Of a stretch of 64,000 bases of DNA, positions 4,074 to 22,015 are shown one piece after another. The translations under genes were made by a program, and so were the position numbers. How positions within the stretch are numbered: position 1 is the stretch's first letter; every line of letters begins with the position of its first letter. Under the pieces are notes generated by a model. It saw nothing but the letters and a program-made list of their open reading frames with translations. It had not been told where the DNA came from and ran no database searches. The stretch comes from Escherichia phage radambza. Where the stretch lies: sequence record MN850639.1, one strand, 5' to 3'.

Positions 4074-4520
4074 TTAAACACTTGACGCTGGAATTGTAGA
4101 AGTGTAGTCTAGCTTCTCACAACCAAAAATCCAAGTTTTAGAGTTCTGGTCACGACCAAGTTCAATCTGCGGTAATTCCTGCAACCAAGCATTAATACCA
4201 GTTGCCAGAACAGAGCCTGATGGGTCGTAGATTACGAAGTTAGAAGAGATATCTTCTTCAAGTTCCATATTGTCTTGTTTAGCTTGAATTGCAGAAAGCA
4301 TCTGGTTAGAGAGAGAAGTCTGCATTAACTCAATCTCAATAGTACCTGTCTTGTCTGCATTTCTTGTCAGAGCAACTTGACCACCTGCACCAACAACTGG
4401 TGTCACAAGTGGTGATGTTCTCTGTAGACGCAAGAATGAATCTGGGGCAAAGCCTTCAATGGCAATACCATTCCAGCTACATACAACGTCTTTAGGGGAA
4501 TATTGCTGATACATAGCCAT
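4074..4520 (-). CDS. tail tube protein (putative)
   Basis: 148 aa, ATG start; position between sheath-sized gene and chaperones; size typical of myovirus tube proteins. Confidence 0.5.
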   Translation of the reverse strand: MAMYQQYSPKDVVCSWNGIAIEGFAPDSFLRLQRTSPLVTPVVGAGGQVALTRNADKTGTIEIELMQTSLSNQMLSAIQAKQDNMELEEDISSNFVIYDPSGSVLATGINAWLQELPQIELGRDQNSKTWIFGCEKLDYTSTIPASSV

Positions 4521-4535
4521 TCCAATTTACCTCTA

Positions 4536-7343: not shown

Positions 7344-7792
7344 TATTCATCTCGCTCGATAATAAATACGCCATTAACACGGTTGCAGTAATCTCTGCCT
7401 TCGTATCTGGCAGCATCACCATATTCTGTGTATTTCTTGACAGAGCAAGGATTCTGACGACGCATGTCAATATCACACTGATTAATACCACCTGCATAGG
7501 GTAGTCCTGAAACAGAGCTTTTAACAAGGTCGTCATAAACAGCTTTCAGAGATTTGAATCTGGAAGAGTTACGTAAATAAACACCACCAACCTTCTCATC
7601 TCCCATCTTGGCTACTTGAAAGAGTAAATATTTAAGAGCTTTGATGGCTGCTTTCTTTTCATCCTTTCCAGATTCTAGATAGAACCACTCTAGCACAGAC
7701 TGTTCAATAAGAATTTCATCATTATTGGTGTCTGTGCAGAGGATTCTTACTCTATCAAGAGGGTTATTGGCTGGGTCGCCTGTATAACACAT
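7343..7792 (-). CDS. head-tail adaptor (putative)
   Basis: 149-aa ORF directly downstream of major capsid gene. Confidence 0.4.
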   Translation of the reverse strand: MCYTGDPANNPLDRVRILCTDTNNDEILIEQSVLEWFYLESGKDEKKAAIKALKYLLFQVAKMGDEKVGGVYLRNSSRFKSLKAVYDDLVKSSVSGLPYAGGINQCDIDMRRQNPCSVKKYTEYGDAARYEGRDYCNRVNGVFIIERDE

Positions 7793-15064: not shown

Positions 15065-15140
15065 TGGAGAATCCGAAGGGACTCGAACCCTTATAAACCT
15101 GTTTTGCAGACAGGCACATAGCCATTTCTGTCACGGATTC
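15065..15140 (-). tRNA. tRNA-Cys (anticodon GCA)
   Basis: Manual cloverleaf: 7-bp acceptor GAATCCG/CGGATTC, T-arm with TTCGAGT loop, anticodon loop cTGCAaa, encoded CCA. Confidence 0.7.
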
Positions 15141-15144
15141 AAAT

Positions 15145-15237
15145 TGGAGGAAGATACCAGACTTGAACTGGTACACCGATTTCTCAGCTACTGGCAGTTT
15201 AGCAAACTGCTCCCTTACCTTTTAGGGTTAATCTTCC
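15145..15237 (-). tRNA. tRNA-Ser (anticodon GCT), type II
   Basis: Perfect acceptor GGAAGAT/ATCTTCC, anticodon stem GCAGT/ACTGC loop ttGCTaa, long variable arm, encoded CCA. Confidence 0.7.
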
Positions 15238-15238
15238 A

Positions 15239-15973
15239 TTATTTCTGTAATGCGCTCTTCATTTCTGGTGTTGCAATAGTGTCAATTACACCAGTTTTAC
15301 AGGCATCATCAAACCAGTCTGGTAAGATACCTGCTAAGAACCCATTGATATTCGTTTTAAGGTACTCTGCAATAAGGGCAGCTTCTTCTTCAATCATCTG
15401 CACAACTTCATCTGCATAAGCTGTAATCTTTGAGATACCTTCATTAATCTTACTAACAGCTTGGTTAGCTAAATCAGAAATAGTATCAAGACCTTTGTCA
15501 ATAGCGTCTTGTAAATCACTTAATACATCATTAACACCGTCTAGTGCACTGTTAATCGTATCAATAGCTTTTTGACCATACTCTGTAGCAACACCCATAA
15601 TACCACTAAATGGTGTACAGCCAACTTGTTCACCTGCTGCACTCATAACATTAGAATAACCTTTTGCTACCTGCATACGTGATGAAAACTCATCAATGGA
15701 CTTTTGACCGTAATCTGTCAGTGTTTTGGTGGTTGATGTAGTGCTTGTTAGACTCGTGGTAAAGCTGTTAAGCAGAACTGTTGTAAGTCCAGCAGCAACA
15801 AGCTTATCCTTTACTGTAGGGTCTGATACAGAGCTAATAGAGCTTACAAGTGATGTAGAGGCAGCTACGGTTCCACCGAGAACTGCTGCACCAGTAATAA
15901 GGGGGTTAGAAAACCCTTTACCAGTTTTTAAGAGATTAAAAATCTCCTTACCTTGTTCTGTCATCTCTTTCAT
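15239..15973 (-). CDS. hypothetical protein embedded in tRNA cluster
   Basis: ORF-track GTG start at 16036 overlaps tRNA-Phe; trimmed to ATG at 15971-15973 (MKEMTEQGKEIF...), about 244 aa. Confidence 0.5.
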   Translation of the reverse strand: MKEMTEQGKEIFNLLKTGKGFSNPLITGAAVLGGTVAASTSLVSSISSVSDPTVKDKLVAAGLTTVLLNSFTTSLTSTTSTTKTLTDYGQKSIDEFSSRMQVAKGYSNVMSAAGEQVGCTPFSGIMGVATEYGQKAIDTINSALDGVNDVLSDLQDAIDKGLDTISDLANQAVSKINEGISKITAYADEVVQMIEEEAALIAEYLKTNINGFLAGILPDWFDDACKTGVIDTIATPEMKSALQK

Positions 15974-15989
15974 TAAGCACCTTTGAAAT

Positions 15990-16066
15990 TGGTAGTCCAG
16001 TGGGATTTGAACCCTCTTCTCATGTTTTTCAGACACGCGCTTTAACCATATAAGCTACTTGGACTA
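15990..16066 (-). tRNA. tRNA-Phe (anticodon GAA)
   Basis: Acceptor TAGTCCA/TGGACTA, anticodon stem CGTGT/ACATG loop ctGAAaa, T-loop TTCAAAT; 3' end register ambiguous by one nt. Confidence 0.6.
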
Positions 16067-16071
16067 TAAAT

Positions 16072-16147
16072 TGGGGTGACCTACGGGATTTGAACCCGTA
16101 TAGACCATGTTCACAGCATGGGTCATTACCATTTATGATAAGGCCAC
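16072..16147 (-). tRNA. tRNA-His (anticodon GTG)
   Basis: Acceptor GTGGCCT/AGGTCAC, anticodon stem CCATG/CATGG loop ctGTGaa, perfect T-arm, encoded CCA. Confidence 0.7.
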
Positions 16148-16178
16148 ATTTAAGGACTCTCGTAAGAATCCTTAGAAG

Positions 16179-16254
16179 TGGCAGCGGCATAAGGATTTGA
16201 ACCTTAATAAGACAGCTTCAGAGACTGCTGCATTGCCAGTTATGCTATACCACT
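16179..16254 (-). tRNA. tRNA-Gln (anticodon CTG)
   Basis: 76 nt; acceptor with two G-U pairs; anticodon loop ctCTGaa; T-arm TAAGG/TTCAAAT/CCTTA; encoded CCA. Confidence 0.6.
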
Positions 16255-16259
16255 AAATT

Positions 16260-16338
16260 TGGTACTCCATATCGGATTCGAACCGATACATAACACAGAT
16301 TTTAAGTCTGGCCTCTCTGCCAATTGGAGTAATGGAGC
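16260..16338 (-). tRNA. tRNA with Leu-type anticodon TAA, short variable arm, 5' end ambiguous (16330 or 16338)
   Basis: Perfect T-arm ATCGG/TTCGAAT/CCGAT, discriminator A, encoded CCA; anticodon stem only 4 bp (CAGA/TCTG), loop cTTAAaa. Confidence 0.45.
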
Positions 16339-16340
16339 AT

Positions 16341-16416
16341 TGGCGGGGGATGTTGGAATTGAACCAACTTCTTCGATTTCAAAGACCGAGGTTTTAACCT
16401 TGTAAACTAATCCCCT
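16341..16416 (-). tRNA. tRNA-Gln (anticodon TTG), 1:72 mismatch
   Basis: T-arm GTTGG/TTCAATT/CCAAC, anticodon stem TCGGT/ATCGA loop ctTTGaa, encoded CCA; first acceptor pair A-C. Confidence 0.5.
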
Positions 16417-16424
16417 TTAAATCT

Positions 16425-16982
16425 TTACTTTCTCAGTGGATGAATAAAGAATGCCAACATAACTCTTTCCCTTGAGAATGCTCTTTCTTCTGGGACAACA
16501 CTTTTTAGTTTCCATCCAATATAAATTCTCCAGTAAAATTGTTTACCAAAGATTTTAATTGATGGGATAAAAGCGAATAATCCCCAAGCATTCCTGTTCC
16601 ACATTAGGAGATAACCAGTCTGATTATCTTCAGGGTTAGAACTTACGTTGATATTACCTTTCCACTTAGTAACATCTTTTACATCTCTTCCTAACACATG
16701 GTAAGAGAAGTTATAAGCTTTGTTTCTCCAGAGCCATCCAACTCTTTGCATGTAGACACCTAGTTTACCAATCCATCTAATATTAGCCCATCTTTTAACG
16801 TGACCTTCATCACCATCAATTGGGTTGTCATATGTCTCCATCCATCTGAATCCGAAAGGTAAGTGTCCTTTCTTCTCACTGTAGAATGGAACTACAAAAG
16901 GTGCTAAGATAACTGCTAAGATTGCTGCAAATGGCTCTAACAAAGCTAAGAAAATCCATGAAGCATACTTTAAGTATCTCAT
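16425..16982 (-). CDS. membrane protein (N-terminal transmembrane segment, Trp-rich), function unknown
   Basis: 185 aa, ATG start; hydrophobic N-terminus IFLALLEPFAAILAVILAPFVVPF; embedded between tRNA genes. Confidence 0.55.
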   Translation of the reverse strand: MRYLKYASWIFLALLEPFAAILAVILAPFVVPFYSEKKGHLPFGFRWMETYDNPIDGDEGHVKRWANIRWIGKLGVYMQRVGWLWRNKAYNFSYHVLGRDVKDVTKWKGNINVSSNPEDNQTGYLLMWNRNAWGLFAFIPSIKIFGKQFYWRIYIGWKLKSVVPEERAFSRERVMLAFFIHPLRK

Positions 16983-17001
16983 CTAAATAGCCTCTTAAAA
17001 T

Positions 17002-17079
17002 TGGTGTTCCAAGACGGATTCGAACCGTCACTAATACAAGGTTTGAGCTTGCATCCTCTGCCAATTGGGATACTGGAAC
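17002..17079 (-). tRNA. tRNA with Leu-type anticodon CAA, short variable arm
   Basis: Acceptor GTTCCAG/TTGGAAC, T-arm GACGG/TTCGAAT/CCGTC, anticodon stem GCAAG/CTTGT loop ctCAAac, discriminator A, encoded CCA. Confidence 0.5.
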
Positions 17080-17080
17080 A

Positions 17081-17155
17081 TGGTACTCACTAAAGGACTT
17101 GAACCTTTTTCTTCATCTTGTAAGGGTGATGTTTTACCATATAAACTAAGCGAGT
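17081..17155 (-). tRNA. tRNA-Val (anticodon TAC)
   Basis: Acceptor ACTCGCT/AGTGAGT, D-stem GTTT/AAAC, anticodon loop ctTACaa, encoded CCA. Confidence 0.6.
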
Positions 17156-17159
17156 GTGA

Positions 17160-17250
17160 AAGAGGTCTGAAGTTGTGCCGCTAACTCAACTCCGTGGAAT
17201 TTGTTACGGTCTTCAGTTGACTCAAAGCGGTCTTTCACTTGACCTCTGAA
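17160..17250 (-). ncRNA. structured non-tRNA element (candidate small RNA or processing structure), strand uncertain
   Basis: Terminal inverted repeat AGAGGTC ... GACCTCT enclosing nested stems (AGTTG/CAACT, CCGT/ACGG, GACCGC/GCGGC-like); no T-loop or anticodon arm. Confidence 0.3.
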
Positions 17251-17251
17251 T

Positions 17252-17327
17252 TGGTGCTCCCACAAGGATTCGAACCCTGATAAGTTGCTTACAAGGCAAC
17301 CGTAATAGCCAATTATACGATAGGAGC
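17252..17327 (-). tRNA. tRNA-Thr (anticodon TGT)
   Basis: Acceptor GCTCCTA/TGGGAGC, perfect anticodon stem GTTGC/GCAAC loop ctTGTaa, encoded CCA. Confidence 0.7.
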
Positions 17328-17334
17328 ATTAATT

Positions 17335-17409
17335 TGGAGCATCCAGAGGGAATCGAACCCTCAACCTCAGTTTGGAAGACTGTAATTTTCCCGTTTAAAC
17401 TATGGATGC
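17335..17409 (-). tRNA. tRNA-Gly (anticodon TCC)
   Basis: Perfect acceptor GCATCCA/TGGATGC, T-arm GAGGG/TTCGATT/CCCTC, anticodon loop ctTCCaa, encoded CCA. Confidence 0.65.
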
Positions 17410-17415
17410 ACTAAT

Positions 17416-17491
17416 TGGTGGAGAAGCAGGGAATTGAACCCTGTACTTAAGTTTGCAAAACTTATGTTTTAACCATGTAAACTACATCCCC
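17416..17491 (-). tRNA. tRNA-Ala (anticodon TGC)
   Basis: Perfect anticodon stem TAAGT/ACTTA loop ttTGCaa, T-arm CAGGG/TTCAATT/CCCTG, encoded CCA; one acceptor mismatch. Confidence 0.7.
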
Positions 17492-17497
17492 AATGTT

Positions 17498-17573
17498 TGG
17501 TACAGGTGGAGGGAATTGAACCCATCGTCTTACTGATTAAGAGTCAGCCGCATAACCATTTTGCTACACCTGC
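17498..17573 (-). tRNA. tRNA-Lys (anticodon CTT)
   Basis: Acceptor GCAGGTG/CACCTGT, anticodon stem GCTGA/TCAGT loop ctCTTaa, encoded CCA; paralogous to the tRNA at 18731-18806. Confidence 0.6.
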
Positions 17574-17580
17574 ATTAATT

Positions 17581-17657
17581 TGGTACACCTAGAGAGATTC
17601 GAACTCACACTGAGCAGATTCTAAGTCTGCTGCCTCTACCAGTTGGGCTATAGGTGC
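17581..17657 (-). tRNA. tRNA with Leu-type anticodon TAG, short variable arm
   Basis: Perfect anticodon stem GCAGA/TCTGC loop ctTAGaa, acceptor GCACCTA/TAGGTGT, discriminator A, encoded CCA; 77 nt. Confidence 0.55.
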
Positions 17658-17915
17658 ATTAAATCTTTTTAGAGAACTTCTAAGAACCTGAGCAACAAGG
17701 TTCCACAACAAGCGACTAATAACCTTAGAAGCCCTCTAAAAAGACCTAAATAGGTCTTTGCATAGTCTTGTTTAATCCGGTGACTAGAACCTTTGGAGAG
17801 CTTGATATTATCTCTTCTCCGTGACACCTACTAGGTGTTTTATCAGTGTGTACGACAATACACGAGGGATACCAAAGCAACATCCGAATGAAGCTTGGCT
17901 TTAAATCTTATTAGG

Positions 17916-18003
17916 CGGTAAGTAAAGGAGTCGAACCCTCACCGTATCTCTACAGTGGCAACTGTTTTCAAGACAGTTTGGCTACCATTAGCCGCTACCT
18001 ACC
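17916..18003 (-). tRNA. tRNA-Ser (anticodon TGA), type II, CCA not encoded
   Basis: Acceptor GGTAGGT/ACTTACC, perfect anticodon stem ACTGT/ACAGT loop ctTGAaa, long variable arm. Confidence 0.65.
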
Positions 18004-18016
18004 CCTAATAAGACTT

Positions 18017-18099
18017 TGGCATGGGACGGAGGAGTTGAACCCCTTTGAAACGGTTTTGGAGGCCGTTGCTCATGCCTTAGAGTCTTAACATCGTCCCAT
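18017..18099 (-). tRNA. tRNA-Trp-like (anticodon CCA) with enlarged D region
   Basis: Perfect acceptor ATGGGAC/GTCCCAT with encoded CCA, T-loop TTCAACT, anticodon loop ctCCAaa; 26 nt between acceptor and anticodon stem instead of about 19. Confidence 0.45.
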
Positions 18100-18242
18100 A
18101 CTATAATTCGAAGCTTACCGTATTATCTCAACACTGTAAAGCCCCTTCTCAGATTATTTACATGTTCTGGAAAACATGAGATACAGACCACCTCCTTACA
18201 CGGAGACCCGATAAGGTCGTCTAAGCAATCTGCTAACTAAAT

Positions 18243-18324
18243 TGGTCGAGGCGGCAGGACTCGAACCCGCATACTCCACTTACTCGGTTAACGGCGGTTT
18301 AGAAGACCGCTGAGATACGCCCCG
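18243..18324 (-). tRNA. tRNA-like element, atypical (anticodon-like loop TCT; no recognisable D arm; 23-nt variable region)
   Basis: Acceptor CGGGGCG/CGCCTCG, T-arm GCGGG/TTCGAGT/CCTGC, encoded CCA, perfect stem GCGGT/ACCGC with loop ctTCTaa, but only 7 nt between acceptor and that stem. Confidence 0.35.
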
Positions 18325-18572
18325 TAATTATCTTTAAAGACTCTCTTAGAAAGCCCTTAAAGATGCCCACTTTATTAATCATACCGTGGGCGAGTACGCC
18401 AAATTCTTTGATGAGGGATTGGAAGACCTCACTGGTGTTTAGCCTATCAAGCTACTGCCAGAAAAACATTGTCGTTTGCATTTATTTTAAATTTGCAAAA
18501 TAGACGCTACGCAACGAAAACTAAGGTTACTATAAAGTAGTCACATCTCAATGTCAACAACTTTATTGAAAG

Positions 18573-18647
18573 TGGTTGTAGGTGAGGGTATCGAACCCTC
18601 TTCTAACGGTTATCAGCCGTTTGCATTACCATTTATGCTAACCCACA
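18573..18647 (-). tRNA. tRNA-Ile (anticodon GAT)
   Basis: Perfect anticodon stem AACGG/CCGTT loop ctGATaa, T-arm GAGGG/TTCGATA/CCCTC, encoded CCA. Confidence 0.7.
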
Positions 18648-18649
18648 AT

Positions 18650-18726
18650 TGGAGGTTCAGGTGGGAATTGAACCCACATTCATAGGGCTTATGAAACCCT
18701 TGCATTACCTTATCTGCGACTGAACC
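18650..18726 (-). tRNA. tRNA-Met (anticodon CAT)
   Basis: Perfect acceptor GGTTCAG/CTGAACC, anticodon stem AGGGT/GCCCT (three G-C pairs) loop ttCATaa, T-arm GTGGG/TTCAATT/CCCAC, encoded CCA. Confidence 0.65.
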
Positions 18727-18730
18727 ATAT

Positions 18731-18806
18731 TGGTAGAAGTGGAGGGATTCGAACCCATCGCCTGTCAGATTAAAAGTCTGCCGCATCACCATTCTGCTAC
18801 ACTTCC
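18731..18806 (-). tRNA. tRNA-Lys (anticodon TTT)
   Basis: Acceptor GGAAGTG/CACTTCT, anticodon loop ctTTTaa, encoded CCA; paralog of 17498-17573. Confidence 0.6.
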
Positions 18807-18810
18807 ATTA

Positions 18811-18954
18811 AATTATCTTTGTAGATAAGCTACCCAGACTTGCTTAAGGTCTGTAGCGATGTGCCTTTTTGGGTTTAAATCTAGAATTTACCCTTTCACC
18901 CTTTGTGGTCGCATACTCACAGGTAAGCTTAATAACTTATCTACAAAGATAATT
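18811..18954. repeat. perfect 19-bp inverted repeat pair (18811-18829 and 18936-18954) flanking a 106-bp spacer
   Basis: AATTATCTTTGTAGATAAG and its exact reverse complement CTTATCTACAAAGATAATT; internal hairpin CAGAC-ttgcttaag-GTCTG. Confidence 0.6.
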
Positions 18955-19005
18955 ACCAGACCGTTGTTTATCATCTTAAGTGCTACCATTACACCAACTC
19001 GACAT

Positions 19006-19031
19006 CTGCCGAGTGAAGGAATCGAACCTTC
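19006..19031 (-). pseudogene. tRNA 3'-half-like fragment (T-arm plus acceptor 3' strand, no 5' partner)
   Basis: Perfect T-arm GAAGG/TTCGATT/CCTTC but no complementary acceptor 5' strand or anticodon arm within 100 nt. Confidence 0.3.
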
Positions 19032-19234
19032 GCCTTTTCTTTACCGAGAAATAGATTGTTTAAGTTTTGCTGTAAACGGTCTTCTGTAAATTTGTTGAGC
19101 CAGACCAAGTTTTAGATTTTCAAAATTAAATTGGCTTGAAATTTCATACGTTCTTGCTGTATTTGGTCTTCTGCTCCTTTAAAGAATACTCGTAAGAACT
19201 CTTTAAGGGAGGGGCTAAATAGCCCTCTCAAAAT

Positions 19235-19310
19235 TGGCGAGGTATGCGAGAATCGAACTCGCGGCTCAGGAGAGACAATCCCGTATTTTACCCATCTAAA
19301 CTAATACCCC
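19235..19310 (-). tRNA. tRNA-Asp (anticodon GTC)
   Basis: Acceptor GGGGTAT/ATACCTC, T-arm GCGAG/TTCGATT/CTCGC, anticodon loop ttGTCtc, discriminator G, encoded CCA. Confidence 0.7.
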
Positions 19311-19314
19311 AAAT

Positions 19315-19743
19315 TCATGTACCATTTCTTAGATACTTCTTCCTACGTCTTTCTGGACTATAGTTTCTTCTACTCTCAGCATTCTTAGCCAGCCTACACT
19401 CATCGCATCTACAGCCTTTAAAATAGCTATACGCAGTTCCGTGTTTAATTGTTTTATGTTTTCTTTCACTTATCTGTGCTGGTCTTGCTGCTTTCATGTT
19501 ACATTTAAGATGACTATAAGAAATATTATCTAGTGAAAAGAAAAGCTCTTTTGCATTCTCACTATGTCTCCACGGAATCTTATGCTCGATAGAGAAATCA
19601 TCCCTAGTCATTTCTTTTCCGCACTGAAAACATCTATTTTGATTTGTCTTACATATAAAATCGAATAGCAAATCTTTTACTAGTCTGTTTTGTGCAGTTC
19701 CCAAACTCATACCAAGTTGTGATTTGTATACTTCATCTCTCAT
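19315..19743 (-). CDS. HNH homing endonuclease
   Basis: CFQCGKEMTRDDFSIEHKIPWRHSEN...SHLKCN HNH motif; ORF-track start at 19836 overlaps tRNA-Tyr, trimmed to ATG at 19741-19743. Confidence 0.75.
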   Translation of the reverse strand: MRDEVYKSQLGMSLGTAQNRLVKDLLFDFICKTNQNRCFQCGKEMTRDDFSIEHKIPWRHSENAKELFFSLDNISYSHLKCNMKAARPAQISERKHKTIKHGTAYSYFKGCRCDECRLAKNAESRRNYSPERRRKKYLRNGT

Positions 19744-19765
19744 AACTAAGTATCTCGCTAAGTGT

Positions 19766-19853
19766 TGGTGTGCCGTGTAGGAGTCGAACCTACCGAGTCT
19801 CAATGACAAGGGATTTACAGTCCCCACCGCTACCATCTACGGGATAACGACAC
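19766..19853 (-). tRNA. tRNA-Tyr (anticodon GTA), type II
   Basis: Acceptor GTGTCGT/ACGGCAC, anticodon stem GGGGA/TCCCT loop ctGTAaa, long variable arm, T-arm GTAGG/TTCGACT/CCTAC, encoded CCA. Confidence 0.7.
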
Positions 19854-19864
19854 ATTTAATTTTG

Positions 19865-19938
19865 CGGTTAGTCAGGGATTCGAACCCTGTGCCATTCGCT
19901 TAACAGGCGACCGCACATACCTTATGTGCTTCCTAACC
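19865..19938 (-). tRNA. tRNA-Asn (anticodon GTT), CCA not encoded
   Basis: D-stem GCAC/GTGC, anticodon loop ctGTTaa, T-arm CAGGG/TTCGAAT/CCCTG. Confidence 0.6.
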
Positions 19939-20022
19939 ATATTTAGTATTACCAGACCGTATCTTTCAATTTTTTCCGCTAAAAATTTAATAAATGTTGC
20001 TGTAAACGGTCTTCTGTAAATT

Positions 20023-20099
20023 TGGAGGCGGGTGCAGGAGTCGAACCTGCCGATACCATGCTAATGAGACATGTGAGACGCCCTTTCTCTATACCCGCA
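20023..20099 (-). tRNA. tRNA with CAT anticodon (Met, initiator or Ile-lysidine type), unpaired 1:72
   Basis: Anticodon stem CATGT/GCATG loop ctCATta, T-arm GCAGG/TTCGACT/CCTGC, encoded CCA; first acceptor position U opposite C. Confidence 0.6.
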
Positions 20100-20190
20100 A
20101 TTCTTAATGACCAGACCAAATCTCTTCTTTGTCCGATTTACCTTCAGATGAATAAGATTAAGTTTGCTGTAATTGGTCTTCTGTCAAAAC

Positions 20191-20268
20191 TGGCGTTCCA
20201 GAAGGGATTTGAACCCTCAAATATCCACTTTGAAAGAGTGGTGACTATACCATTTTGTCTACTGGAAC
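20191..20268 (-). tRNA. tRNA-Glu (anticodon TTC)
   Basis: Perfect acceptor GTTCCAG/CTGGAAC, perfect anticodon stem CCACT/AGTGG loop ctTTCaa, encoded CCA. Confidence 0.7.
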
Positions 20269-20275
20269 ATTAATT

Positions 20276-20352
20276 TGGTCTCTGTTGGAGGACTTGAACC
20301 TCCGGCCTTACCGCCCCAAACGGAACGCTCTACCAAGCTGAGCTAAACAGAG
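20276..20352 (-). tRNA. tRNA-Pro (anticodon TGG)
   Basis: Perfect acceptor CTCTGTT/AACAGAG, D-stem GCTC/GAGC, anticodon loop ttTGGgg, T-arm GGAGG/TTCAAGT/CCTCC, encoded CCA. Confidence 0.65.
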
Positions 20353-20378: not shown

Positions 20379-20409
20379 ACTTTAACATTATTTTTTAGTG
20401 ATTGTCAAG
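20379..20409 (-). promoter_or_regulatory. candidate sigma70-type promoter for the tRNA cluster (minus strand)
   Basis: Minus-strand TTGACA, 17-19 nt spacer, then TAAAGT/TTAAAG, about 30 nt upstream of the first tRNA. Confidence 0.3.
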
Positions 20410-20517
20410 AACTTTTTTAAAATATTTTTCAGTATCTTAGAAAAGCTCTCGTTTCGTTTCTATGTAGAACATATTAAAGGGTATCAAACACATTGTCAAT
20501 ACCCTTTTTGAAACTTT

Positions 20518-21933
20518 TTACCAGATGTAACGGTCAATCATTACTGCTTTGAGCATTACGCTGATTGGGTCAAACTTCTCACCACCAAGCAGAGCTTTTA
20601 AAGTTGCTGGAGAGAAACCAGATACCATTGCTACACCGTTATCCTTAACAGACACTTCGCAAGTACCATTACGGTTTGCTAAGTACCAGAATACCAGTTG
20701 AGGCATTTCGTACCCAGCTTTTTTGTACTTACTCTGAATTGCTTCAAAGTTTGTACGACCGTTAGCTCCATCAACCTGATTGAACTCCATATCGGAGAAG
20801 ATGATAAGCTTACTTGGCATGTCTTTCTGAGTCAAGTTGTTTCTCTTACCTACCTCAAGAATGCGGTCAAAAGCTGCTTGTAAGTTAGTTGAGCCATATT
20901 CAACATGTCGCATCACCTGACGATGACGGTTTCGTAAATCACCACTCAGTTCGATGAAGTGAGGGTTTGTTGAATAAACCATTAACTCATCCTTGAAGCA
21001 ACCTGTATTGCGTTCTGCTACATACAAGGCAAGTGATACACCAATATCAAGGGCAGTGATTGAACCAAGATTCACCCAAGACATTGAGCTTGAAACATCA
21101 GTCATACACAGGATGTTTTCACCTTCTGCCATCCAGTTTGGTAGTGCTTTCCACTGCTCATTAGCAACATCTGCATTACCATACTTGATAGATTTAATCA
21201 CATCGTATGGGTAAACAGCACCAGCATTAATCTTAGCCTCACCTTTTGAGAGGGACTCGATGTAAGCTTTGTAACGCTCTCCATCTTTACGGTTAAACAG
21301 TTTTTGGTAACGTGCAGCAGCAAGTGAAGGAATCTTACTGTAGTCAATCTTACCAAACTCATTAGCAGAGATTTTTTGCTCAACTGTATCAGATAGTGCA
21401 GACAACAGTGTGCGGTACTCTTTCTCACTCAAGTTGGCAAACTTGCAGAAACGTTTTACAAACTGCTTATGACGTGGTTTGACTCGTGGTAACCACTTAG
21501 CCGCCAAGCCTGCTGTTGCAGGGTCTAGTAATGCTGCTTCTAAATGTTTGAAGGCATCTGTCTCGAAACGAGTACCTACAAAGATTTTGAAGTCATCAAA
21601 ACGACCAAGCTCTGCAATCTTATCCATAATGCGAAGAACCTGTGTAGGTTCTAAAACTTTATCTTCAATTGCTTGAAGTAAAACAGTTCGGAAAGCTTTA
21701 CGCTCACCCATACCTTCTCGTACATCTCGCATATGCAGTAAAATACGAACTGCAACATCAACATCCTCACGCAAAGCTTTGTAGAACAGGTCTGGTAAGA
21801 TTACTACATTGCTACGGCTCGAACCAGCAGCTTTGTAAAAGTCTACAAGAGCAGACATTGATGAAGTATGGTTTACAGCACCATTTTCAGTTCGACCTGC
21901 ATGAAGGTGCGCATGTTTAAATAATTCGCTCAT
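20518..21933 (-). CDS. von Willebrand factor A (vWA) domain protein with N-terminal helical domain
   Basis: 471 aa; MIDAS-like ILCMTDVSSSM at about residue 280 and later IIFSDMEF; N-terminal roughly 270 aa of unknown fold. Confidence 0.6.
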   Translation of the reverse strand: MSELFKHAHLHAGRTENGAVNHTSSMSALVDFYKAAGSSRSNVVILPDLFYKALREDVDVAVRILLHMRDVREGMGERKAFRTVLLQAIEDKVLEPTQVLRIMDKIAELGRFDDFKIFVGTRFETDAFKHLEAALLDPATAGLAAKWLPRVKPRHKQFVKRFCKFANLSEKEYRTLLSALSDTVEQKISANEFGKIDYSKIPSLAAARYQKLFNRKDGERYKAYIESLSKGEAKINAGAVYPYDVIKSIKYGNADVANEQWKALPNWMAEGENILCMTDVSSSMSWVNLGSITALDIGVSLALYVAERNTGCFKDELMVYSTNPHFIELSGDLRNRHRQVMRHVEYGSTNLQAAFDRILEVGKRNNLTQKDMPSKLIIFSDMEFNQVDGANGRTNFEAIQSKYKKAGYEMPQLVFWYLANRNGTCEVSVKDNGVAMVSGFSPATLKALLGGEKFDPISVMLKAVMIDRYIW

Positions 21934-21967
21934 ATTTTACTCTCTTCTCTCATTTTGTTTGTTGATG

Positions 21968-22002
21968 TGACAGACTTTAGAGCAACTTTGTAGAGTCTGT
22001 CA
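21968..22002 (-). promoter_or_regulatory. intergenic hairpin (9-bp stem, 17-nt loop) between two minus-strand genes
   Basis: TGACAGACT ... AGTCTGTCA perfect inverted repeat; no flanking U-run. Confidence 0.4.
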
Positions 22003-22015
22003 ACACCTTTTAAAA

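What the first reader, a model, noticed from the sequence alone, without database searches (positions are those of the whole stretch)
20518..21933. vWA-domain protein beside the tRNA / structured-RNA cluster: possible RNA-binding (Ro60-like) module
The 471-aa protein has a helical N-terminal domain of about 270 aa followed by a vWA domain with a MIDAS-like DxSxS motif. That two-part architecture is what Ro60/Rsr-type proteins look like (TROVE domain then vWA), and bacterial and phage Ro60 homologs are encoded next to tRNA-like Y RNAs. The atypical tRNA-like elements and the nested-stem element at 17160-17250 would be candidate RNA partners. I cannot confirm homology by eye.
Basis: inference. 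Interest (0 to 1): 0.5.

Follow-up and report, generated by a model that had tools for sequence, protein, structure and literature searches.

The report
Phage Ro60-like protein with Y-RNAs
This Felix-O1-type phage gene encodes a ring-shaped RNA-binding protein of the Ro60 kind, and the tRNA cluster beside it contains four unannotated small RNAs (one a tRNA mimic) carrying a conserved 'handle' that accompanies this protein family in very different phages, which gives a reported anti-defence protein concrete RNA partners to test.

Summary

What appears new is the RNA side. Four same-strand elements lie in gaps of the tRNA array (18953-20186). Each has a closing helix (AGR-N4...N4-YCU) followed by single-stranded UACAGCAA. 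One (E4) encloses a permuted T-arm/hairpin/D-arm domain like YrlA. The module recurs beside DUF2828-type genes in phages of Proteobacteria, Firmicutes and Actinobacteria, with strong covariation. Many of those loci have no tRNA nearby. It is absent from TROVE-type Ro60 loci, which have GNCGAA instead, and from a tRNA-rich T5-like phage.

Protein-RNA binding and function remain inferred. gp130 alone rescues T7 on Ppl, and about 33 modules have no gene on the fetched stretch. Verdict: new variant of a known kind.

The parts
20518..21933 (-). Gene for the 471-aa Ro60-fold protein (DUF2828 + DUF7788/vWA with a complete MIDAS motif); ortholog of Bas63 gp130
21974..22003 (-). Promoter-like site (TTGACA-18-TAAAGT) upstream of the gene. 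The leader at 21934-21973 has no CAGCAA module
   Evidence: consensus match only
20379..20507 (-). Hairpin immediately after the stop codon (20507-20476) that contains a TTGACA box, plus two promoter-like sites (20499-20471, 20408-20379) ahead of tRNA-Pro. This is a possible separate start for the tRNA/small-RNA array
   Evidence: a similar hairpin containing TTGACA follows the gene in Klebsiella phage FBKp34
20108..20186 (-). E1: short Y-RNA-like module between tRNA-Glu and tRNA-Met. Outer stem UGAC/GUCA, internal loop AGA vs G, helix AGACCAA/UUGGUCU, single-stranded UUACAGCAA, open A/U-rich loop
   Evidence: (R1 E 0.008)
19949..20019 (-). E2: short module between tRNA-Met and tRNA-Asn. Outer stem UUAC/GUAA, helix AGACCGU/ACGGUCU, UUUACAGCAA
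   Evidence: (R1 E 1e-5)
19097..19176 (-). E3: short module. Outer stem GAGC/GCUC, helix AGACCAA/UUGGUCU, AUACAGCAA
   Evidence: strict signature; not reported by R1
18953..19089 (-). E4: long module with the same closing helix and UUUACAGCAA. It encloses a V-like hairpin, a T arm (GAAGG-UUCGAUU-CCUUC), a 7-bp hairpin in the acceptor-stem position, U-G, and a D arm (GUGU-AAUGGUA-GCAC). This is a YrlA-type permuted tRNA mimic; the tRNA-like domain spans 18980-19031
15065..20352 (-). Context: array of 24 tRNA genes on the same strand, in whose gaps E1-E4 lie. Flanking tRNA processing would release them
   Evidence: release by tRNA processing is inferred

Best explanation
The gene encodes a phage Ro60-type ring protein: a helical solenoid closed by a vWA/MIDAS domain. 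It belongs to the DUF2828/DUF7788 family, a distant sister of TROVE Ro60.

The adjacent tRNA array encodes four Y-RNA-like small RNAs (E1-E4) as its likely partners. Each RNA has a 7-9 bp closing helix whose base is conserved (5'-AGR...YCU-3'), followed by single-stranded U-N-CAGCAA. I propose this 'handle' is the protein-binding site, playing the role that the GNCGAA/bulged-helix site plays for TROVE Ro60.

The interior of the RNA is the variable part. In E1-E3 it is an open A/U-rich loop. In E4 it is a permuted tRNA-like domain, as in YrlA, that could engage tRNA-binding enzymes. Because the RNAs sit between tRNAs, RNase P and 3'-end processing of the flanking tRNAs would release them from the array transcript.

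By analogy with Rsr-YrlA-PNPase and Thermus phage phiRo60-Yrl-PNPase, the particle would tether or sequester a host RNA enzyme during infection and so protect phage RNAs and tRNAs or blunt a host defence. The 98%-identical Bas63 gp130 counters the Ppl system.

Shown here: the fold; the existence, covariation and strand of the RNA family; its co-occurrence with the gene; and the switch of RNA motif with protein type. Inferred: direct binding, release by tRNA processing, and the host target.
For: Protein:
- Model pLDDT 90.4, pTM 0.89.
- Foldseek: top 11 PDB hits are all Ro60, E about 1e-7, TM up to 0.68.
- BFVD shows a continuum from DUF2828/DUF7788 proteins to TROVE phage proteins.
- hhalign against a TROVE alignment: probability 76%, E 2.3e-5, pairing the MIDAS elements, AVYPYDV with RIHPFHIL, and IPSLAAARYQK with MPLTALLRNLGK.
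- Many invariant Arg/Lys residues in the N-domain.

RNA in the window:
- Four exact copies of AGAAGACC-N3-TACAGCAA with GGTCTGG partners, all on the minus strand inside the array and nowhere else in 64 kb.

RNA in 75 divergent loci:
- Same-strand ACAGCAA reaches 0.63-0.69 per kb within 500 nt of the gene, against about 0.03-0.15 per kb elsewhere.
- A closing helix of at least 7 bp is present at 71% of motif sites against 19.5% of random positions (p 8e-13). The strict signature occurs 36 times on the gene strand and once on the other; permuted 7-mers give a mean of 0.95.
- A covariance model built only from window E4 and Sf14 finds full-length gene-strand hits in distant phages at E 4e-11 to 2e-5; 46 of 47 hits are on the gene strand.
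- 94.5% of pair cells are paired, against 56% in shuffles and 35-42% when partners are slid; 358 cells change on both sides, against 113.
- Modules are present next to the gene in Listeria, Campylobacter, Sinorhizobium, Bacillus, Klebsiella and Mycobacterium phages.

Specificity:
- At least 11 loci with modules have no tRNA within 4 kb.
- TROVE-type loci have GNCGAA YrlAs and no CAGCAA module, while the tRNA-like domain is shared.
- A T5-like phage with about 26 tRNAs and no such gene has no modules.
- Starting from the RNA pattern alone, 20 of 54 well-formed modules have the gene on the same stretch, all on the same strand, at a median of 245 nt.

Function:
- Bas63 gp130 counters Ppl (PMC11482910).
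- An RtcB ligase lies 1.3 kb from the gene in Listeria phage LMTA-34.
Against: - No binding or expression data exist for E1-E4.
- gp130 alone, from a plasmid or inserted into T7, rescues T7 on a Ppl host, so that phenotype does not need the phage's own RNAs.
- About 33 well-formed modules in viral contigs have no DUF2828-type gene on the fetched stretch.
- Roughly a quarter to a half of DUF2828 loci show no convincing module within 4 kb.
- Rfam YrlA does not hit the window's E4 at E<=10, and all YrlA hits on relatives are below the gathering score.
- The short modules are thermodynamically unremarkable, z -1.3 to -1.9.
- The N-terminal ~190 residues are linked to Ro60 by predicted fold only.
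- The pair counts come from an alignment fitted to the model.
Confidence: 0.6

Rival explanations
1. The protein acts alone. It would be a protein-binding inhibitor, for example using its vWA/MIDAS face to block the Ppl ATPase-PHP protein. The CAGCAA RNAs would then be functionally separate residents of phage tRNA regions, such as tRNA-mimic decoys or processing elements, that merely share a neighbourhood with the gene.
For: gp130 alone rescues T7 on Ppl and even improves plating without any defence system. The LeBron homolog gp53 is toxic when expressed alone. About 33 modules lie in tRNA arrays with no gene on the stretch. The MIDAS motif is invariant, and in other proteins MIDAS sites bind protein ligands (established knowledge of vWA domains).
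Against: Modules follow the gene in at least 11 loci without tRNAs and sit within a few hundred nt on the same strand in six host phyla or classes. The RNA motif switches from GNCGAA to CAGCAA exactly when the protein switches from TROVE to DUF2828. A tRNA-rich phage without the gene has none. A host RNA could stand in as partner in the T7 experiment.
Confidence: 0.2
2. The modules are cis-acting regulatory elements, such as operators or attenuators bound by the protein to autoregulate its own mRNA or the array transcript, rather than free trans-acting Y RNAs.
For: In several phages a module lies in the gene's 5' leader with the Shine-Dalgarno directly after the 3' arm: L014, L015, L018 and L028 at -34 to -45, phi-pp2 and phiN3 at 2896-2930. 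In Listeria and Campylobacter phages tandem modules lie just upstream of the gene.
Against: In this window the leader has no module. E1-E4 lie 330-1560 nt downstream, beyond promoter-like sites and several tRNAs. One module per genome carries an elaborate tRNA-like domain, which an operator would not need. Leader copies fit autoregulation through mimicry of the true ligand, which still implies that the protein binds the module.
Confidence: 0.1
3. The Ro60 resemblance is convergent. On this view a generic helical solenoid plus a vWA domain mimics the Ro60 shape in a predicted model, and the protein is not an RNA-binding ring.
For: No TROVE match by HMMER in 62 members. 11-16% identity to Ro60. 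The structure is predicted, not solved.
Confidence: 0.05

Closest known systems
Bas63 (Escherichia phage JohannRWettstein) gp130, from the PhageMaP preprint (PMC11482910)
   Same: The same protein: 460 of 471 residues identical and the same position directly upstream of tRNA-Pro. The preprint reports structural similarity to Ro60, speculates about Y RNAs among the tRNAs, and shows experimentally that it counters the Ppl defence.
   Different: The preprint suggested that some annotated tRNA genes might be Y RNAs. Here the candidates are unannotated elements in the gaps between tRNAs. In Bas63, E4 lies under a small opposite-strand ORF, bas63_0137. The CAGCAA module and its family-wide distribution were not described there.
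Bacterial Rsr (Ro60) with YrlA/YrlB, forming the RYPER complex with PNPase (Chen et al. 2014, PMC4201824)
   Same: Ring plus vWA protein. Small RNAs encoded within a few kb on the same strand. One RNA has a permuted T-arm/acceptor-hairpin/D-arm tRNA mimic (like YrlA) and shorter ones lack it (like YrlB). An RtcB ligase is nearby in the Listeria phage, as in the Salmonella rsr-yrlBA-rtcBA operon (the operon content is from established knowledge).
   Different: The protein is DUF2828/DUF7788, not TROVE, by sequence. The conserved RNA motif is AGR-helix + U-N-CAGCAA rather than GNCGAAN0-1G. Rfam YrlA does not detect the window's E4. No PNPase link has been tested.
Thermus phage phiLo phiRo60 with Yrl1/Yrl2 (PMC12135203; PDB 9KOP, 9L5Y)
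   Different: phiRo60 is a TROVE protein whose RNAs use a CGAA motif. Its binding and a cryo-EM complex are experimentally shown, whereas nothing here is.
TROVE-type Ro60 of actinophages (Catera/Bxz1 cluster C1, Streptomyces BE cluster, Gordonia GMA2) with YrlA
   Same: Same genomic theme: a Ro gene beside or inside tRNA arrays, with a YrlA-like tRNA mimic and sometimes a tmRNA. The D arm of Beuffert's element is nearly identical to that of E4.
   Different: 357 phage records, almost all from actinophages, against 709 records across many host phyla for the DUF2828 type. No CAGCAA module.

Membership tests
Ro60 / Rsr (TROVE) protein family | TROVE domain (Pfam PF05731) detectable by sequence | tested here: not met
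   hmmscan at E<=1 for the window protein and at E<=10 for 62 homologs gives only DUF2828 and DUF7788 plus weak VWA_2, VWA_CoxE and vWA_Ro60 matches. A PDB profile search gives only E 2.3 at the MIDAS strand.
Ro60 / Rsr (TROVE) protein family | Ring of helical (HEAT-like) repeats closed by a C-terminal vWA domain | tested here: met
Ro60 / Rsr (TROVE) protein family | vWA domain with a MIDAS motif (DxSxS...T...D) | tested here: met
   D279, S281, S283, T349 and D381 are invariant. hhalign aligns them to Ro60's DVSASM, GSTD and TDCE. vWA_Ro60 (PF25045) matches 14 of 62 members, best E 4.7e-4.
Ro60 / Rsr (TROVE) protein family | Remote sequence homology by profile-profile comparison | tested here: inconclusive
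   hhalign of A1 against a 4-sequence TROVE alignment gives probability 76%, E 2.3e-5, but only for window residues 190-444 against Ro60 266-526. Residues 1-190 are not aligned.
Ro60 / Rsr (TROVE) protein family | Binds Y RNA and misfolded RNA | not testable with these tools
   Only genomic association is available.
YrlA-type Y RNA (Rfam RF02553) | tRNA-like domain in permuted order: T arm, hairpin in the acceptor-stem position, D arm, closed by a 5'-3' stem | tested here: met
   E4 has GAAGG-UUCGAUU-CCUUC, then ACUCGGC-AGAU-GUCGAGU, then UG, then GUGU-AAUGGUA-GCAC. All helices covary across 46 sequences.
YrlA-type Y RNA (Rfam RF02553) | GNCGAAN0-1G motif near the 5' end (proposed Ro-binding site) | tested here: not met
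   The 5' region carries AGR-N4-NU-ACAGCAA instead. The GGCGAAG in E4 lies at the V-loop/T-stem junction and is not conserved in homologs. TROVE-type phage YrlAs do have the motif.
YrlA-type Y RNA (Rfam RF02553) | Score at or above the Rfam gathering threshold (69 bits) | tested here: not met
   There is no hit on the window at E<=10. Homologous long modules in FBKp34, Krypton555, PBC2 and phiN3 score 36-40 bits. That is the same range as the YrlAs of TROVE-type phages, 34-43 bits.
YrlA-type Y RNA (Rfam RF02553) | Encoded within about 4 kb of the Ro gene on the same strand | tested here: met
   E1-E4 lie 330-1560 nt downstream on the same strand. The same holds in the distant loci.
DUF2828/DUF7788 family (PHROG 850 'RNA-binding protein'; SEA-PHAGES 'Ro-like RNA binding protein') | Full-length match to the family profiles | tested here: met
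   PHROG 850 E 1.1e-183 over residues 1-471; DUF7788 148.9 bits (cut-off 27.1); DUF2828 100.8 bits (cut-off 29). 709 phage records contain a homolog.

The most novel reading that the evidence does not exclude
DUF2828/DUF7788 proteins and 'CAGCAA-handle' RNAs would form a second, previously unrecognised class of Ro60-Y RNA particles. It would be about twice as common in sequenced phages as the TROVE class. It would have its own RNA recognition code (an AGR/YCU-based helix plus single-stranded U-N-CAGCAA) and modular cargo domains: a tRNA mimic, open loops, or ornate interiors of 160-240 nt. Phages would use these particles to capture or decoy host RNA-directed enzymes, including defence nucleases. 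The relatives in giant viruses and plants (DUF2828) would then also be RNA-binding rings with undiscovered RNA partners.
Probability: 0.45. Interest if true: 0.78.

Novelty: new variant of a known kind. Interest (0 to 1): 0.62.

Why it matters
Ro60-Y RNA particles are a long-studied but functionally elusive RNA-surveillance system. In bacteria and phages they have been defined through TROVE proteins and the GNCGAA-type YrlA.

This locus shows that a sequence-unrecognisable sister family is accompanied by its own Y-like RNAs with a different conserved handle. The family occurs in 709 of about 50,700 phage records, including Felix O1-type coliphages, Listeria P100-type phages, and Staphylococcus, Campylobacter and KVP40-type phages.

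That has three practical consequences:
- An experimentally tractable anti-defence protein (Bas63 gp130 against Ppl) gains four concrete RNA candidates and a mutable motif.
- Regions now annotated as empty spacers or tiny opposite-strand ORFs in hundreds of phage genomes get an explanation.
- A natural pair of protein/RNA specificities (TROVE with GNCGAA, DUF2828 with CAGCAA) becomes available for studying how Ro rings recognise RNA.

Tried and rejected
- Rfam on the window, at gathering thresholds and then at E<=10 on 8 kb and on 341 nt, gave no Y_RNA or YrlA hit. I first read this as absence of a partner RNA, but the later model-based search showed E4 is too divergent for RF02553.
- The GGCGAAG in E4 looked like the YrlA hallmark. 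I rejected it because it sits at the V/T junction and is not conserved.
- Exact ACAGCAA undercounts the family. The core is really U-N-C(A/C)GCA, but a 5-mer core search is noisy: 136 hits against 27-46 for control cores.
- The MAFFT alignment of the long modules (A2) misaligned the 3' strand and was not used for pair counts.
- phmmer and hmmsearch against PDB sequences found nothing useful. hhalign against a single Ro60 sequence was marginal, E 0.002.
- 'Modules are tRNA-array spacers' was rejected as a general explanation, but it was not fully excluded for the orphan modules.
- Autoregulatory leader module in this phage: none is present.
- The AFDB fold library was unavailable. The review PMC10870794 is not held. 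Literature searches for DUF2828, YrlA+phage, Ro-like+phage and Ppl found no description of the RNA module.
Full report
**1. The observation**

The ORF at 20518-21933 (minus strand, ATG start, 471 aa) exists as described. It lies directly upstream of 24 tRNA genes on the same strand, at 15065-20352.

Pfam assigns DUF2828 to the N-terminal part and DUF7788 to residues 275-455. PHROG 850, labelled 'RNA-binding protein', matches end to end at E 1e-183. In an alignment of 62 homologs at 40-89% identity, the MIDAS residues D279, S281, S283, T349 and D381 are invariant. So are many basic residues of the N-domain, including R40, R69, R72, R78, R111 and K146.

The window is a Felixounavirus. The region is 97% identical to several Felix O1-like coliphages, and the gene is conserved in about 250 such records.

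**2. The protein has the Ro60 fold**

An AlphaFold2 model built from the 62-sequence alignment is confident, with mean pLDDT 90.4 and pTM 0.89.

- Foldseek against the PDB returns Ro60 for all of the top 11 hits: Xenopus, human, Deinococcus Rsr and Thermus phage phiRo60. They have E about 1e-7, TM up to 0.68 and full-length alignments. The next tier contains only vWA domains, at E above 2e-3.
- In the viral structure library the nearest neighbours are DUF2828/DUF7788 proteins of phages and giant viruses (E 1e-33 to 1e-18). They are followed by TROVE or 'Ro-like' phage proteins at about 1e-8.

By sequence the link is weaker. No TROVE match appears in any of the 62 members, and 14 of 62 weakly match vWA_Ro60. 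hhalign against a four-sequence TROVE alignment gives probability 76% and E 2.3e-5 for residues 190-444 against Ro60 266-526. That alignment pairs the MIDAS elements, AVYPYDV with RIHPFHIL, and IPSLAAARYQK with MPLTALLRNLGK.

I conclude that this is a divergent sister of TROVE Ro60. It is homologous over at least its C-terminal half and Ro60-like in overall fold.

**3. Prior art**

Bas63 (MZ501086) gene 130 is 460/471 identical and occupies the same position. The PhageMaP preprint (PMC11482910) reports the following:
- gp130 resembles Ro60 structurally and sits upstream of the tRNAs.
- Some of the annotated tRNAs might be Y RNAs.
- Deleting gene 130 gives tiny plaques on a Ppl-defence host.
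- gp130 alone, from a plasmid or inserted into T7, rescues T7 on Ppl.

SEA-PHAGES annotates mycobacteriophage homologs as 'Ro-like RNA binding protein'. LeBron gp53 is toxic when overexpressed.

**4. The RNA partners**

Reading the minus strand of the array, I found four exact copies of AGAAGACC-N3-TACAGCAA. Each is followed 40-110 nt later by GGTCTGG. All four fold the same way:
- an outer 4-bp stem that covaries between copies (UGAC/GUCA, UUAC/GUAA, GAGC/GCUC)
- a conserved internal loop (AGA opposite G)
- a 7-bp helix AGACCNN/NNGGUCU
- single-stranded N-UACAGCAA
- a variable interior

They lie at 20186-20108 (E1), 20019-19949 (E2), 19176-19097 (E3) and 19089-18953 (E4). All are in gaps between tRNAs. 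The strict signature occurs nowhere else in the 64 kb on either strand.

E4's interior contains a V-like hairpin, a canonical T arm, a 7-bp hairpin in the acceptor-stem position, U-G, and a D arm with GG in its loop. This is the permuted tRNA-like layout that defines YrlA.

**5. The RNA family is real and travels with the gene**

*Distant phages.* The same architecture sits right after the gene in Klebsiella phage FBKp34 (52% protein identity) and in mycobacteriophage Krypton555 (34%). In each, one copy carries a T/AS/D domain.

*75 divergent IMG/VR loci at 39-48% identity.*
- Same-strand ACAGCAA reaches 0.63-0.69 per kb within 500 nt of the gene, against about 0.03-0.15 per kb elsewhere and on the opposite strand.
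- The consensus is 5'-AGR-N4-NU-ACAGCAA...N4-YCU-G-3', with freely covarying N4 pairs.
- 71% of motif sites have a closing helix of at least 7 bp, against 19.5% of random positions (p 8e-13). The strict signature occurs 36 times on the gene strand and once on the other. Permuted 7-mers give a mean of 0.95 and a maximum of 5.
- The core tolerates variants such as UUCAGCAA, UACCGCAA and UUGCAGCAU.
- Permuted tRNA-like domains occur 19 times on the gene strand and never on the other. 16 of 17 are enclosed by the handle.

*Covariance model.* A model built only from window E4 and its Sf14 ortholog finds full-length, gene-strand matches in distant phages. Examples are L028 at 4e-11, L076 at 1.5e-9, Krypton555 at 4e-6 and FBKp34 at 7e-6. 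It also finds the window's E2 at 1e-5 and E1 at 0.008. 46 of 47 hits are on the gene strand. On the resulting alignment, 94.5% of pair cells are paired, against 56% in shuffles and 35-42% when partners are slid. 358 cells change on both sides, against 113. All 32 pairs show double changes. The caveat is that this alignment is fitted to the model.

*Most divergent branches.* The module is also present next to the gene in Listeria LMTA-34 (three tandem copies upstream), Campylobacter F365 (two), Sinorhizobium phiN3 (four) and Bacillus PBC2 (at least six, with R1 hits at 3e-12 and 8e-9).

**6. Specificity tests**

- *Not a tRNA-array feature in general.* Only 18 of 60 loci have any tRNA within 4 kb, and at least 11 module-bearing loci have none.
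- *Negative control.* A T5-like phage with about 26 tRNAs and no DUF2828 gene has no significant model hit (best E 0.35) and no strict module in its tRNA region.
- *Motif switching.* Rfam does contain YrlA (RF02553). It gives sub-threshold hits of 34-43 bits both to the YrlAs of TROVE-type phages (GMA2, Catera, Beuffert) and to the long modules of DUF2828-type phages (FBKp34, Krypton555, PBC2, phiN3). My model matches a Beuffert element at 2.8e-7, but only over the tRNA-like domain. TROVE-type RNAs carry GNCGAA(N)G and GGUUAYC and have no CAGCAA handle. So the tRNA-like cargo is shared, while the protein-proximal module changes with the protein family. That is the pattern expected if the handle is the binding site.
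- *Reverse association.* I searched viral contigs for the RNA pattern alone. Of the 120 hits, 54 have perfectly complementary arms. Twenty of those have the gene on the same short stretch, all on the same strand, at a median distance of 245 nt. About 33 have no such gene on the stretch even with a profile HMM. These share no other neighbouring protein family and sit in dense tRNA arrays. Either the gene lies further away, as in phi-pp2 where one module is 3.4 kb from it, or modules can exist without it. This is unresolved.

**7. How it probably works, and what argues against it**

The best-supported reading is a phage Ro60-type particle. A ring protein would bind the helix-plus-CAGCAA handle of several small RNAs released from the tRNA array transcript. 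The RNA interiors would recruit or decoy other factors. These include a tRNA mimic, which could engage tRNA-recognising enzymes.

Known Ro60 systems tether PNPase (Rsr-YrlA), or attenuate it in the case of phiRo60-Yrl. The Listeria phage locus has an RtcB ligase and a phosphohydrolase close by. The Bas63 ortholog counters Ppl.

Points against an obligate RNP:
- gp130 alone suffices in T7.
- The orphan modules exist.
- Not all loci have detectable modules.
- The short modules are thermodynamically weak (z -1.3 to -1.9).
- No binding or expression data exist.

Rivals considered: the protein acts alone through its MIDAS face; the modules are cis-regulatory operators, since some do sit in the gene's leader in other phages, though not here; or the fold is convergent.

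**8. Verdict**

The protein identification is already known from annotation and a 2024 preprint. The cognate RNA family and its distinct recognition motif appear undescribed in Rfam 15 and in the searchable literature. I rate this a new variant of a known kind, of moderate to high interest to RNA-biology and phage-defence specialists because it is directly testable.

Noticed in passing
window 18284-18619 (minus strand): Possible phage tmRNA-like gene. A promoter-like TTGACA-17-TATAGT lies at 18557-18529, followed by a reading frame GCA AAC GAC AAT GTT TTT CTG GCA GTA GCT TGA TAG = ANDNVFLAVA** (compare the E. coli tag ANDENYALAA). ARAGORN calls a permuted tmRNA only at a relaxed threshold (-ps80). 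Rfam tmRNA_permuted scores 31.7 bits (gathering 47). The tag is identical in Sf14, Bas63 and two IMG/VR relatives. True tmRNAs also sit next to Ro-type genes in Gordonia phage GMA2 and in locus L026.
   Followed up: partly
It is about 96% conserved between Felixounavirus and Mooglevirus. It contains GAAGACCGUAACAAAU, which resembles the 5' half of the modules but lacks the CAGCAA core. Function unknown.
   Followed up: partly
window 18813-18952 (minus strand): Another unannotated element of about 140 nt directly 3' of E4. It has a ~22-bp closing helix, MFE -46.4 kcal/mol and z about -6.3 (mononucleotide shuffles). It contains a mini hairpin AGAC-CUUAAGCAA-GUCU-GG at 18852-18834. It is present in Bas63 under the small opposite-strand ORF bas63_0138.
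   Followed up: partly
window 18246-18324 (minus strand): Atypical tRNA-like gene. It scores 31.7 bits with the Rfam tRNA model but is not called by ARAGORN. The equivalent is annotated tRNA-Arg (UCU) in Bas63 and Sf14. The D-arm region looks aberrant and the variable region is long.
   Followed up: no
window 19315-19836 (minus strand): An HNH homing-endonuclease ORF is inserted between tRNA-Tyr and tRNA-Asp. In Bas63 and Sf14 these two tRNAs are adjacent, so the insertion is specific to this phage lineage. The listed ORF start overlaps tRNA-Tyr, and the true start is probably further in.
   Followed up: no
L089 (Bas63, MZ501086) 4249-4523: The small opposite-strand ORFs bas63_0137 and bas63_0138 are annotated over E4 and the adjacent structured element. 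They are probably spurious calls over RNA genes. Similar mis-annotation is likely in many Felixounavirus records.
   Followed up: partly
window 20476-20507 and L002 (FBKp34) about 7451-7480: A hairpin immediately after the stop codon of the Ro-like gene encloses a perfect TTGACA -35 box in both phages, despite only 52% protein identity. This may be an overlapping terminator and promoter arrangement.
   Followed up: no
L093 (Listeria phage LMTA-34) 1428-1979 and 5808-7019: There is a near-threshold ROOL RNA hit (88.5 bits, gathering 99.1, E 9e-17) about 1 kb upstream of the Ro-like gene, and an RtcB 'tRNA splicing ligase' 1.3 kb downstream.
   Followed up: no
L092 (Gordonia phage GMA2) 5737-6514: Downstream of a TROVE-type Ro60 gene lie, in order, a tmRNA (94.6 bits), a YrlA-like RNA (43.1 bits), tRNA-Trp, a Pistol ribozyme hit above its gathering score (56.8 bits against 34.5), and then the rest of the tRNA array.
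   Followed up: no
L100-L215 (33 IMG/VR stretches, listed): These are well-formed CAGCAA modules inside dense tRNA arrays with no DUF2828-type or TROVE gene on the fetched stretch. The neighbours are mostly homing endonucleases.
   Followed up: partly
L014, L015, L018, L028, L005 (phi-pp2) 4974, L095 2896-2930: In some phages a short module sits in the 5' leader of the Ro-like gene, with the Shine-Dalgarno directly after its 3' arm. This suggests autoregulation through a mimic of the RNA ligand. The window's own leader has none.
   Followed up: partly
L017, L020, L027, L048, L060 short modules: The open loops of many short modules contain one or two further AGCAA repeats after the ACAGCAA, for example ACAGCAA...CAAGCAA...UAAGCAA. 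The 3' side of the internal loop in long modules is often A-rich (AAAAAR).
   Followed up: no
L096 (Bacillus phage PBC2, KT070867): The record annotates its 15 tRNAs on the strand opposite to the one on which Rfam finds them. By Rfam they are on the same strand as the Ro-like gene.
   Followed up: no
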